IMG/VR virus record: IMGVR_UViG_2671180890_000005
Coordinates: 1 to 51,026 of that record
Reading direction: 5' to 3' (one strand)
DNA from: a virus
Taxonomy: Duplodnaviria > Heunggongvirae > Uroviricota > Caudoviricetes
DNA length: 51,026 bases
Positions 43,501 through 46,500 of this stretch are shown piece by piece. A program made the position numbers. The first letter of the stretch is position 1; each line of letters starts with the position of its first letter.

Positions 43501-46500
43501 AAGGACGATTGGCGCAACTGCGACTCTTGGCGTATCAATGGGGCTTGAGGCTGGTTTCGGTGCAATGATGCGCTTGTATGAGTCCAAAGCAGCAAGGAAT
43601 GCTCTCTTACGTCTGGCAAACACTAAAGCTGGAACGCCAGCCTATGAAAGAGCGCTGAATAACGCTGCGAATGCCATCAGGCCGCTGCTTGCCACTGAGG
43701 CAACACAGCAGTAACGTATGGGAAATTGGATTCAATCGCTAACATTTTCTTTTTACTTTTCCAACAAAAGCTTTGGTTGAATCCATATTTCCATAACCGG
43801 AAATGGTTTTTGACATTAAAACTGTTCCAGTAGGATGTATTACCCATGAGTCGATAACGCGTTGAGTTTCGCCATTCGCGCCGATTCCTATGATGGAGTT
43901 TTTAGACAATACTTTGTAAGCCATGCCGCCCGCATCTGTCCCAGAATATGTGATGCTAGCATCTTCACCGCTTGTCTTAATGATGAATGTTCCACTAAAA
44001 CCATCTTCTTCCGGATGGAAATTATTTCGTTCTGAATAGCTTATTCCGCGCATATCTCCAACGACCCAGCACTCTGCTGTAGCCCCAAAAGATATGAATA
44101 AGAACATAGCAGCAAGAAATTGCTTCACACCAACCTCCTTAGTTTTGTGCAGGATACCAGATGATAATGTGTAGTTGGAGTAGCGCGGTTGTAATGCAAG
44201 CATTTTGTTTTGGTTTTATGCTTGCTTGTATGTGTGTACAGTGCATATAATGCAAGCATACATCACAACAAAGGTGCTTGCATTATGACTGAAAAGAAAA
44301 GTGGCGAAGGGAAAGCTAAGGGCGGGATCGCTCGCGCAAAGTCGCTGACTAAAGAGCAGCGTTCTGAAATAGCAAAGAAAGCAGCTGCTGCAAGATGGAA
44401 AAGTAAGATTCTCAGGGCAACTCATCGTGGTAACTTTTTAGATGATTTTGGCATTGATGCTGAATGTTATGTACTGGATGACGAGTCGAAAACTGTCGTT
44501 GTTACGAAAACTGGATTATCTCAGTTGCTAGGGATTGGTGAACATGCCAGGGATTTAGATCAACTGCTTGGCGCTCAGTATATGAGCAAATACCGAGATC
44601 TAGAATTGCAGCGAAAAATGGAAAATCCCTATAAATTTCAACTTACTTCGAAGTCTAAAACCGTTCATCAAGCGTTAGGTTATGACATTACAGCAATTGT
44701 TGATATTGGTAGGGCACTAATAGAAGCCAAAGATAATGACGATCTACCACAATCACGGTTAAAGGCAGCCGCCGCAGCACAGAGACTTATTAATGCCTCC
44801 GCTAAGGCGGGAATTAAGGGGGTTGCGTATGCGCTTGCTGGTTATCGTCCAGAAGTTCAGGCTGTCATTGACGAGTTCAAAGCGTTTGTTCGTGAAGAGG
44901 CTCGTCAATATGAAAAGGAATTTCCAGATGAGCTATACGAGGAGTGGTATCGACTGTACGGCCTGAATAGGCCAGAGAAAGGACGGCCTATTCGTTTTGG
45001 GCAGCTAACCAACATGCAGATATACACCCCGCTAGCAAAGAGTAAAGGTAAAATCCTTGAACAAATTAGAGCCAGCCGAGACGAGAACGGAAAACAATCT
45101 GATAAGTTGCATCTGTTCCTTTCTGAAATTGGTGTCAAGGCTTTGCGTCAGCATATCGGTAAGCTTCTTGGTGTCGCAGCGATGAGTGAGACAAGAGAAG
45201 AATACGAAAAAGGAATAGAAAAGGTTTTCGGAAGAATGAAACCAGAAATCTAATTATGAAACCCACCGTCAGGTGGGTTTTTTGTACAAATCCTTCAGCG
45301 TATCAAACACCATCTTCTTAACAAGTTCAGACTGCTCATCAGCGATGCGTTCCGCATCGTCTCGATAGCCTGAAATTTTGGATGGCTTTGATACAGCATC
45401 AGTCACTATCTGAACTAATTCTGAATTAAGAGAGCGGCCATTGGATTTGGCTCGCTGTTTTAGTTTTTCCTTTAATTCGTAAGGTAGCCGCAGATTAAAT
45501 TGCGGGTCATCTCTTCCCATTCTTGATGCCTCACTTTTGTAAGTGGATCGGCATCATATGATCTACTGGTTATATCCACAATAAGACCACTGTGGTCTCA
45601 ATGACGCATTGCCGTAGCCATGCTGCGGTGATTCCTTGTATCTGGAGCAAATTAAATGACAGACATTACAGCCAATGTGATCGTATCAATGCCATCGCAA
45701 CTCTTCACTATGGCGCGTTCTTTTAAAGCCGTAGCCAATGGCAAAATTTATATCGGTAAAATTGACACTGACCCTGTAAATCCTGAAAACCAGATTCAGG
45801 TTTATGTGGAGAACGAAGACGGCTCTCACGCTCCTGTTTCGCAACCAATAATCATTAACGCTGCTGGATATCCGGTATATAACGGACAGATTGCCAAATT
45901 CGTTACCGTGCAAGGCCATTCTATGGCTGTTTATGATGCGTATGGTGCACAGCAGTTCTATTTTCCCAATGTGCTGAAGTATGACCCTGATCAACTACGG
46001 CAGCAATTAGAAGACCCAGATGGAGCGAATAAATACCCAAAACTTCAGATAGCAAGATGGAGAGACAGTTATGATGTAAGAGGTTGGGGGGCTATTGGTG
46101 ATGGTGTTCATGATGATACATCAGCTCTATCAGAATTACTTTCTGTTGCAACAGGTGGTGAAAAGATAGATGGGCGAGGGCTTACTTTTAAAGTATCAAC
46201 TCTTCCAGATGTCAGTCGATTTAAAAATGCTCGTTTTTTATTTGAGAGAATACCGGGTCAGCCTCTTTTTTATGCTTCTGAAGATTTTATCCAGGGAGAG
46301 TTATTTAAAATTACAGATACACCGTGGTACAACGCCTGGACGCAGGATAAAACGTTTGTATATGACAATGTCATCTATGCGCCTTTTATGGCTGGAGACC
46401 GCCATGGTGTAAATAACCTCCATGTTGCATGGGTTCGCTCAGGAGATGACGGGAAGACCTGGACAACGCCGGAATGGCTTACAGATTTACATGAAAACTA

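What the first reader, a model, noticed from the sequence alone, without database searches (positions are those of the whole stretch)
43739..44128. Second copy of the small secreted protein family, in the sieA slot
Between the last ejection-protein gene and mnt, where P22 carries sieA, there is a minus-strand gene whose product (GTG start, signal peptide MKQFLAAMFLFISFGATA) is a paralog of the cI-adjacent secreted protein. Both share ECW(I/V)V after the cleavage site and K(A/S)FVG plus a Cys near the C-terminus. Two diverged copies in two classical exclusion slots suggests a periplasmic exclusion or host-interaction function.
Basis: partly seen in the sequence, partly recalled or inferred. Interest (0 to 1): 0.55.

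Follow-up and report, generated by a model that had tools for sequence, protein, structure and literature searches.

The report
Secreted Hex-family protein replacing SieA
A small exported protein gene sits exactly where phage P22 keeps its exclusion gene sieA; it is a distant copy of phage 434's "Hex" exclusion gene, which this prophage also carries next to its repressor, so it is probably a periplasmic anti-phage factor, though that has not been tested.

Summary
Window 43739..44128 (-) is a real 129-aa gene with a GTG start and an AAGGAGG ribosome-binding site. It encodes an 18-residue signal peptide and a hydrophilic mature domain of about 12 kDa with invariant Cys residues near both ends.

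It is a genuine full-length paralog of the gene next to cI, 18222..18626 (-): 27% identity, E 6e-11, and both match PHROG 2651 at about 1e-60.

Hex is a named "heterologous exclusion" gene: lambda imm434 lysogens of Salmonella exclude P22, and hex- lysogens do not.

The new copy occupies the sieA cassette precisely. Its 31-nt leader and GTG are identical to those of P22 sieA. A sister E. coli prophage carries sieA instead, and homology breaks at the start codon and just before the gene 16 stop codon.

All 80 retained IMG/VR loci keep the gene in this slot, and about 4% of complete E. coli genomes match the region. The mature domain has dN/dS of about 0.1. One subgroup carries an unrelated signal peptide on a roughly 95% identical mature domain.

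AlphaFold models (pLDDT 88 and 91) show a small meander beta-barrel with no specific structural relative.

The most likely role is a prophage-expressed periplasmic exclusion factor. That function is inferred, not shown. I rate it a new member of a known but poorly understood family.

The parts
43739..44128 (-). CDS of the sieA-slot Hex-family paralog (129 aa, GTG start, stop included)
   Evidence: ORF and sequence. PHROG 2651 at E 4.6e-60. dN/dS of the mature part is about 0.1 against alleles in other prophages. Identical at the protein level to phage Emek gp14 by the tblastn (99.2%); that gene is annotated 'similar to Sf6 gene 38'.
44075..44128 (-). Signal peptide, residues 1-18 (MKQFLAAMFLFISFGATA); predicted signal peptidase I cut ATA|E
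   Evidence: It has a basic n-region, a hydrophobic core and small residues at -3 and -1. The same layout holds in 137 of 137 CW-motif family members examined (-1 is Ala in 112), and only 7 are lipobox-compatible. A subgroup carries an unrelated signal peptide on the same mature domain.
43742..44071 (-). Mature domain from Cys20 (44071-44069) to Cys129 (43744-43742): about 12 kDa, hydrophilic, 8-9-stranded meander beta-barrel
44126..44159 (-). Leader, ribosome-binding site and start codon; these 34 nt are identical to those of P22 sieA
   Evidence: 100% megablast matches to P22 records at the sieA start. P22 annotation. Alignment. The leader (near-identical in most loci, variant in a few) is present upstream of the gene in at least 8 different upstream contexts.
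44151..44159 (-). TGgTATCCT, an extended -10-like element inside the conserved leader (candidate promoter; inferred)
   Evidence: Read directly from the sequence. The consensus -35/-10 scan found nothing. Conservation across unrelated upstream sequences is the only support.
18222..18626 (-). Ortholog of phage 434 Hex (134 aa), translationally coupled to cI through an ATGA overlap
   Evidence: 98% identical to the 434 'repressor protection protein'. Sequence of the overlap. AF2 pLDDT 91.1 with the same fold.
18623..19255 (-). 434-type cI repressor (HTH plus S24 peptidase), upstream partner of hex
   Evidence: Pfam. 99% identical to 434 cI by tblastn (row L002).
41873..43714 (+). gp16-type ejection protein gene, convergent left neighbour that defines the slot
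   Evidence: Homology with the sieA-carrying sister prophage runs to 43713.
44285..45253 (+). P63C-domain gene, divergent right neighbour; not part of the Hex cassette
   Evidence: Pfam PF10546 at 6.8e-14. The same gene flanks sieA in E. coli elppa4.
45269..45520 (-). mnt-type repressor gene
   Evidence: Pfam Arc and Repressor_Mnt.

Best explanation
The gene encodes a Sec-exported, signal-peptidase-I-processed, soluble periplasmic protein of about 12 kDa. It folds as a small closed beta-barrel, probably stapled by a disulfide between Cys20 and Cys129. It is a divergent paralog of phage 434 Hex ('heterologous exclusion'), and the Hex ortholog itself sits in the cI operon of the same CUS-3-like, P22-type prophage.

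The gene has been swapped, ORF for ORF, into the cassette position that holds sieA in P22 and in sister E. coli prophages. It keeps the sieA leader, ribosome-binding site and GTG.

I infer that it is made in the lysogen and acts in the periplasm to block infection by incoming phages, most plausibly P22-like phages. The likely step is DNA delivery across the envelope, for example by binding the gp7/gp20/gp16 ejection conduit or a virion-borne wall hydrolase. On this view it is a soluble periplasmic counterpart of the inner-membrane protein SieA.

Shown here: the gene is real, the paralogy, family-wide export signals, the fold, the exact slot replacement, and purifying selection.

Inferred: expression in the lysogen, the disulfide, the exclusion function and the target.
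For: Paralogy:
- BLASTP E 6e-11 over the full length.
- Both proteins match PHROG 2651 at about 1e-60.
- The conserved columns are shared.

Identity of the partner:
- 98% identical to 434 Hex.
- PMC3564112 reports, citing Susskind and Botstein, that Salmonella(lambda imm434) excludes P22 and that hex- lysogens do not.

Export:
- Signal-peptide features are present in all 137 CW-motif members, with [A/S/V]-x-[A/S]|X-Cys.
- Two unrelated signal peptides and leaders are fused to a roughly 95% identical mature domain.
- Two Cys in the mature protein are invariant or nearly invariant.
- The mature part is hydrophilic with no transmembrane segment.
- The stable 434 Hex fragment found experimentally starts at Glu43 of the 158-aa ORF. 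That is exactly the predicted cleavage site ANS|ECW. Full-length overexpression was toxic.

Slot:
- The 34-nt leader and GTG are identical to P22 sieA.
- E. coli elppa4 has gene16-sieA-P63C-mnt-tailspike on the same backbone. Homology breaks at window 43713 and 44126.
- All 80 retained IMG/VR loci (of 226 relatives found) keep the gene in this slot. In most it lies about 31 bp from and convergent with gene 16, whatever the gp16 allele (56-100% identity).

Real gene: mature dN/dS 0.08-0.14. 229 of 5426 complete E. coli genomes match the region.

Fold: AF2 pLDDT 88 and 91 for a meander barrel.
Against: - No experiment addresses the sieA-slot copy.
- Sharing a slot with sieA is guilt by position. 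This 'ant moron' region is known for rapid gene flux with varied functions (PMC2629481).
- The only biochemical study of Hex assigns it a cytoplasmic role, blocking RecA-stimulated cleavage of 434 and P22 repressors, and reports a RecA-dependent lysogen-stability phenotype.
- The stage at which Hex excludes P22 is not known to me. It could act after injection.
- No sigma-70 consensus promoter was found upstream.
- The fold searches give only generic barrels and name no partner.
- At 27% identity the two paralogs may not share a target.
Confidence: 0.5

Rival explanations
1. It is a lysogenic-conversion or host-fitness factor rather than an anti-phage factor. On this view it is a periplasmic small-barrel protein that binds a ligand or host envelope component, for example a calycin-like carrier or an inhibitor of host lysozyme or antimicrobials. 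It would benefit the pathogenic E. coli or Salmonella host.
Against: There is no Pfam hit to MliC/PliC or to any binding family, even across 113 members. The one relative with a phenotype has an exclusion phenotype. Nearly every context examined is a prophage-expressed immunity or exclusion slot. The gene is an exact alternative to sieA.
Confidence: 0.25
2. It works as published for 434 Hex: a cytoplasmic 'repressor protection' protein that shields the 434-type cI from RecA-stimulated autocleavage and so lowers spontaneous induction. The sieA-slot gene would be a second dose of this activity.
For: PMC3564112 reports the following. A hex::cat lysogen induces 30-fold more, and only in recA+. The fragment sHex complements about 7-fold. 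sHex inhibits cleavage of 434 and P22 repressors in vitro. In addition, the cI-hex pair with its 4-bp overlap is conserved in Enterobacter, Yersinia and Klebsiella prophages. This window does carry a 434-type cI.
Against: - A signal peptide and paired Cys are conserved across the whole family, which is hard to square with a cytoplasmic target.
- sHex starts exactly at the predicted signal-peptidase site. It spans only the first 4 of 8 barrel strands (residues 19-79). It was purified through GuHCl and used at micromolar excess. It is therefore unlikely to be natively folded.
- The hex- allele is a cat cassette with its own promoter and terminator placed directly after cI, so cis effects on cI expression are possible.
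- The sieA-slot copy is unlinked to any repressor. It travels with P22-like late regions whose distal immunity regions were not examined here.
Confidence: 0.1
3. It is an integral outer-membrane beta-barrel of the PagP/Ail/Lom type, inserted by BAM, that alters the cell surface.
Against: - The mature protein is only 111 aa.
- It ends in KRKC (or GTCNQ in Hex) rather than an aromatic C-terminal beta-signal. It is hydrophilic, GRAVY -0.29.
- It has no Pfam outer-membrane-protein hit.
- The conserved terminal Cys pair suits a soluble disulfide-stapled barrel.
- Soluble barrels such as Cap15, NHBA, avidins and FABPs score equally well.
Confidence: 0.05

Closest known systems
Phage 434 Hex (also Sf6 gene 38 protein, and the 'repressor protection protein' of 434 records); PHROG 2651
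   Same: It is homologous over the full length: 27% identity, the same PHROG, and the same conserved Cys/Trp/Gly/Asp/Lys columns. It has the same layout of signal peptide plus a roughly 110-aa barrel, the same predicted fold, and a prophage-borne location.
   Different: It is only 27% identical. It sits in the late-region sieA cassette with the sieA leader, not in the PRM-cI operon. It has never been studied. The mature protein is neutral (pI 7.0), whereas Hex is acidic (pI 4.9).
P22 SieA (inner-membrane superinfection exclusion protein that blocks DNA injection through gp16/gp20)
   Same: It occupies the identical genomic cassette position and orientation. It has the identical leader, ribosome-binding site and GTG. 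It is interchangeable with sieA on the same prophage backbone.
   Different: There is no sequence similarity (E 4.6). SieA is a 164-aa polytopic membrane protein with several hydrophobic segments. This protein is a soluble exported barrel (PMC10883804).
T4 Spackle (Sp), T5 Llp and the Cor lipoproteins: small envelope-located exclusion proteins that act from the periplasmic side (from my own knowledge, not tested here)
   Same: They are small, exported proteins made by a resident or early-infecting phage, and they act in the envelope against incoming phage. This is a functional analogy only.
   Different: No homology was detected: the only PHROG hit is 2651, and there is no PADLOC hit. It is not a lipoprotein, since the residue before the Cys is Glu and only 7 of 137 members are lipobox-compatible. 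No target is known.
Lambda RexAB, 933W Stk and BTP1 BstA: accessory genes co-transcribed with cI
   Same: The Hex copy at 18222..18626 occupies the same position between cI and PL/nutL.
   Different: These are unrelated proteins that act in the cytoplasm or inner membrane after DNA entry.

Membership tests
Hex family (phage 434 Hex / Sf6 gp38 / PHROG 2651) | Significant full-length sequence similarity to Hex | tested here: met
   BLASTP E 6e-11 at 27% identity over 129 of 134 aa. PHROG 2651 at E 4.6e-60. tblastn hits to 434, Sf6, HK446 and HK633 hex.
Hex family (phage 434 Hex / Sf6 gp38 / PHROG 2651) | Architecture: N-terminal signal peptide, Cys at mature position 2, single domain of about 110 aa, Cys within a few residues of the C-terminus | tested here: met
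   The same strand order appears in both AF2 models.
Hex family (phage 434 Hex / Sf6 gp38 / PHROG 2651) | Location directly downstream of, and coupled to, a 434-type cI repressor | tested here: not met
   The gene lies between gene 16 and the P63C/mnt genes. The cI-linked arrangement holds for the other copy and for Enterobacter, Yersinia and Klebsiella homologs.
Hex family (phage 434 Hex / Sf6 gp38 / PHROG 2651) | Heterologous exclusion of P22-type phage by the lysogen | not testable with these tools
   The phenotype is reported only for 434 hex (PMC3564112).
Hex family (phage 434 Hex / Sf6 gp38 / PHROG 2651) | Inhibition of RecA-stimulated autocleavage of 434 and P22 repressors | not testable with these tools
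   This is a biochemical claim for the sHex fragment only. The predicted export argues against its relevance.
SieA superinfection exclusion proteins | Sequence homology to SieA types A, B or C | tested here: not met
   BLASTP against the E. coli elppa4 SieA gives E 4.6. No Pfam, PADLOC or NCBIfam hit.
SieA superinfection exclusion proteins | Polytopic inner-membrane protein | tested here: not met
   The only hydrophobic stretch is the cleavable signal peptide. The highest 19-residue Kyte-Doolittle mean in the mature part is 0.77, against 2.58 for SieA.
SieA superinfection exclusion proteins | Gene position and orientation after gene 16, with the sieA leader | tested here: met
Outer-membrane 8-stranded barrels (PagP / Ail-Lom / OmpX) | C-terminal aromatic beta-signal, strands long enough to span the membrane, Pfam OMP domain | tested here: not met
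MliC/PliC periplasmic lysozyme inhibitors | Match to the MliC/PliC family profile | tested here: not met
Exclusion lipoproteins (Cor, Llp) | Lipobox with lipidated Cys | tested here: not met
   The residue before the Cys is Glu here and E, D, N or Q in most members. Only 7 of 137 are lipobox-compatible.

The most novel reading that the evidence does not exclude
Hex-family proteins form a previously unrecognised class of soluble, disulfide-stapled periplasmic superinfection-exclusion proteins. They are carried in both of the prophage-expressed slots examined here, the cI operon and the sieA cassette, and are interchangeable with inner-membrane SieA. On this reading the published cytoplasmic 'repressor protection' mechanism for 434 Hex is an artefact of working with an unfolded half-barrel and a polar cat insertion. 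Two diverged copies in one prophage would then give non-redundant specificities against different incoming phages.
Probability: 0.35. Interest if true: 0.6.

Novelty: new member of a known kind. Interest (0 to 1): 0.45.

Why it matters
Hex was named in 1980, yet its mechanism is still unclear. Databases call it a 'repressor protection protein' on the basis of one paper that did not notice the signal peptide.

Three results here give a concrete, testable alternative: periplasmic exclusion. First, the family is exported. Second, the experimentally observed fragment begins at the predicted signal-peptidase site. Third, a divergent paralog is a precise alternative to sieA in many P22-like prophages: all 80 examined of 226 IMG/VR relatives, and a match to the region in about 4% of complete E. 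coli genomes.

If that alternative is confirmed, it adds a soluble periplasmic player to the small set of known injection-blocking proteins. It would also offer a tool for dissecting how P22-type ejection proteins cross the periplasm.

If it is not confirmed, the gene remains an ordinary conserved prophage moron of unknown role.

Tried and rejected
- Pfam, NCBIfam and PADLOC scans of both proteins gave nothing usable.
- A Pfam scan of 113 family members gave only two single-member chance hits.
- Profile searches of PDB sequences gave nothing below E 0.25.
- The genome-contig scan returned only 5 loci, because the pattern it chose was narrow.
- The sigma-70 promoter scan found no site upstream. 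The three terminator-like hits lie inside coding sequence and I discount them.
- Literature searches found no work on Hex beyond PMC3564112. The original Susskind and Botstein 1980 paper is not in the library, so the stage of Hex exclusion could not be checked.
- Cluster look-ups of distant members gave only 'hypothetical protein', plus one automated 'OstA-like N-terminal' label. I do not trust that label.
- I rejected the longer 154-aa ORF starting at ATG 44203. It has no ribosome-binding site, and homologous alleles and P22 sieA start at the GTG.
- I did not measure how often the two copies occur together in one prophage. The E. coli searches give counts only: 229 genomes match the sieA-slot region and 206 match hex.
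The Cys20-Cys129 distance and the placement of conserved residues could not be checked.
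Full report
**1. What is at the coordinates**

On the minus strand an ORF runs from a GTG at 44128-44126 to a stop at 43741-43739, giving 129 aa. The sequence AAGGAGG lies at 44140-44134, five nt upstream of the GTG. The longer 154-aa reading from ATG 44203 has no ribosome-binding site, and neither homologous alleles nor P22 sieA use it.

The left neighbour is the gp16-type ejection gene (41873..43714 +). It is convergent, with a 24-bp gap. To the right lie a divergent P63C-domain gene (44285..45253 +), then mnt (45269..45520 -), then the tailspike gene (45656..48601 +).

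**2. The paralogy is real**

The product aligns end to end with the protein encoded at 18222..18626 (-): 27% identity, E 6e-11. Both match PHROG 2651 ('unknown function') over its full length, at 4.6e-60 and 1.1e-58.

In a 27-member alignment the invariant columns are C20, W21, G28, D42, Y71, G81, W95, K107, G123 and C129. Across 113 much more distant members, C20 and G28 stay invariant, and G123 and C129 stay above 90%.

An exhaustive profile search found 187 representative clusters at E<=1e-3. The full-length ones are single-domain proteins of roughly 115-160 aa; the list also includes shorter fragments. There is no Pfam, NCBIfam or PADLOC family, and no solved relative by sequence.

**3. 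The cI-adjacent copy is phage 434 Hex**

tblastn against phage genomes found the relatives in 434, lambda imm434, Sf6 (gene 38), HK446, HK633, Sf101, Huey and Chlobot. The window protein is 98% identical to the 434 'repressor protection protein'. The DNA printed as 'Hex' in PMC3564112 encodes the same [21 protein letters not shown]... sequence.

The surrounding module is imm434: a 434-type cI and cro, joined to a lambda-type N. The hex ATG overlaps the cI stop codon as ATGA, so hex is translationally coupled to the repressor. nutL and PL lie downstream.

According to PMC3564112, which cites Susskind and Botstein 1980, lambda imm434 lysogens of Salmonella exclude P22 and hex- lysogens do not. 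That is the origin of the name 'heterologous exclusion'.

**4. Export**

Both window proteins have a basic N-terminus, a hydrophobic core and a small-x-small motif: ATA|E in one and ANS|E in the other. Cys follows at mature position 2.

I scripted a check of all 137 full-length members that carry the CW motif:
- Every one has a hydrophobic 10-residue window with mean Kyte-Doolittle hydropathy of at least 1.84.
- Position -1 is Ala in 112 and Ser in 12.
- Position -3 is A, S or V in 113.
- Position +1 is mostly E, D, N or Q.
- Only 7 members are lipobox-compatible.
- The distant members that lack the Trp look the same on inspection.
- 102 of the 137 have exactly two Cys in the mature protein.

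The alleles in other prophages add a natural experiment. A subgroup that is 88% identical overall carries a completely different leader and signal peptide (ATG start, MKLIIAMAFLVFSFSVSA) on a mature domain that is about 95% identical. The mature-domain dN/dS is 0.08-0.14. Selection therefore keeps a signal peptide of some kind, not a particular sequence.

The mature proteins are hydrophilic (GRAVY about -0.3) and have no transmembrane segment.

The published data fit this reading, although the authors did not see it. The stable fragment 'sHex' begins at Glu43 of their 158-aa ORF, which is exactly the residue after ANS. Overexpression of the full-length protein stopped growth.

**5. Fold**

AlphaFold2 gives confident models for both paralogs: pLDDT 88.4 with pTM 0.77, and pLDDT 91.1 with pTM 0.81. 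Each shows an N-terminal helix, which is the signal peptide, followed by 8-9 antiparallel strands in meander order.

The first and last strands carry the two conserved Cys at their outer ends. A disulfide closing the barrel is therefore a reasonable inference.

The published sHex fragment (residues 19-79 of the 134-aa protein) covers only the first four of the eight strands.

**6. The slot**

The 34 nt from 44159 to the GTG are 100% identical to the P22 sieA leader and start codon.

A CUS-3-like prophage in E. coli elppa4 has gene16-sieA-P63C-mnt-tailspike-acyltransferase on the same backbone. Homology with the window runs up to 43713, just short of the gene 16 stop codon, and resumes at 44126, the third base of the start codon. 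This is an exact ORF-for-ORF exchange of two unrelated genes (BLASTP E 4.6).

In IMG/VR, 226 stretches encode relatives. All 80 loci kept show the gene in this slot. In most it is convergent with and about 31 bp from gene 16. The gp16 alleles in these loci range from 56% to 100% identity to the window's.

Upstream of the leader (near-identical in most loci, with variants in a few) there are at least eight unrelated sequence contexts, including the authentic P22 PsieA region. The leader contains TGgTATCCT (44159-44151), an extended -10-like element. The standard -35/-10 scan found nothing. The promoter is therefore inferred, not shown.

229 of 5426 complete E. coli genomes match the sieA-slot region, although only 22 match at least 80% of the 576-bp query. 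206 genomes carry hex. Their overlap was not measured.

**7. Wider contexts**

Hex-type homologs at about 50% identity in Enterobacter, Yersinia and Klebsiella prophages keep the same arrangement: a 210-aa S24 repressor followed by hex with a 4-bp overlap. An Aeromonas homolog sits alone in a decayed mobile island.

The gene in phage Emek was already annotated 'similar to Sf6 gene 38'. The homology is therefore present in databases, but I found no literature that draws any conclusion from it.

**8. Interpretation**

The best reading is a prophage-expressed periplasmic exclusion protein: a Hex paralog recruited to the sieA cassette. This rests on four things: the exclusion phenotype of Hex, the family-wide export signals, the two prophage-expressed locations, and the exact interchangeability with SieA. 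SieA blocks DNA injection by P22-like phages through gp16 and gp20 (PMC10883804).

The target and the step affected are guesses. I give the functional claim about 0.5.

The main rival is a host-fitness periplasmic protein (0.25).

The published cytoplasmic repressor-protection model (0.1) conflicts with the export signals. It also rests on a half-barrel fragment purified through GuHCl, and on a cat-cassette replacement placed immediately after cI.

An outer-membrane barrel (0.05) is disfavoured by the protein's size, its hydrophilicity and its non-aromatic C-terminus.

**9. Verdict**

The gene is a new, unstudied member of the known but poorly understood Hex family.

The finding is moderately interesting. 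It re-frames Hex as an exported protein and identifies a second common exclusion-slot occupant in P22-like prophages. It is not a new kind of system.

Noticed in passing
window 48755-49629: There are 32 perfect copies of the heptamer AAGACTC at 48760-48983, at the 5' end of a hexapeptide-repeat acetyltransferase gene. This is a neuO-type contingency locus, which marks the window as a CUS-3-like prophage of E. coli K1. The ORF that starts at 48755 stops at 49039, and the acetyltransferase frame resumes only at 49294. With 32 repeats, which is not a multiple of 3, the gene appears to be phase-OFF. The multiple-of-3 rule is from my own knowledge.
   Followed up: partly
window 44192-44286: The intergenic region between the Hex-like gene and the divergent P63C-domain gene holds four copies of TAATGCAAGCA(T), arranged as two inverted pairs. 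They look like operator sites. The last copy abuts the P63C start codon. The region is shared with the sieA-carrying sister prophage, so it belongs to the P63C module.
   Followed up: partly
L100 (E. coli elppa4, NZ_CP083512.1 4126025-4135159): This sister prophage has the same backbone but carries sieA in place of the Hex-like gene. The homology breakpoints fall exactly at the start codon and just before the gene 16 stop codon. It is a clean example of cassette exchange.
   Followed up: yes
L071-L083 (IMG/VR loci), gene start in each: This allele subgroup has a wholly different 5' leader and signal peptide (ATG start, MKLIIAMAFLVFSFSVSA) joined to a nearly identical mature domain.
   Followed up: yes
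window 16863-17495 (-): A 210-aa Cys-rich ORF (many CxxC-like pairs) lies just downstream of the lambda-type N gene. It has no Pfam match.
   Followed up: no
window 17505-19574: The immunity region is a hybrid: 434-type cI, cro and hex joined to a lambda-type N with a lambda-like boxB (GCCCTGAAGAAGGGC near 18040).
   Followed up: partly
public records (phage Huey PQ850609; UniRef entry for P0100): Hex homologs carry misleading automated names: 'PagP lipid A acylation protein' in phage Huey and 'Organic solvent tolerance-like N-terminal domain' in UniRef. The 434 records use 'repressor protection protein'. None of these names reflects the signal peptide.
   Followed up: partly
window 44285-45253 (+): A P63C-domain protein gene sits inside the immI/'ant moron' region, between the sieA slot and mnt. 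No arc or ant gene is evident between mnt and the tailspike gene in this window.
   Followed up: no
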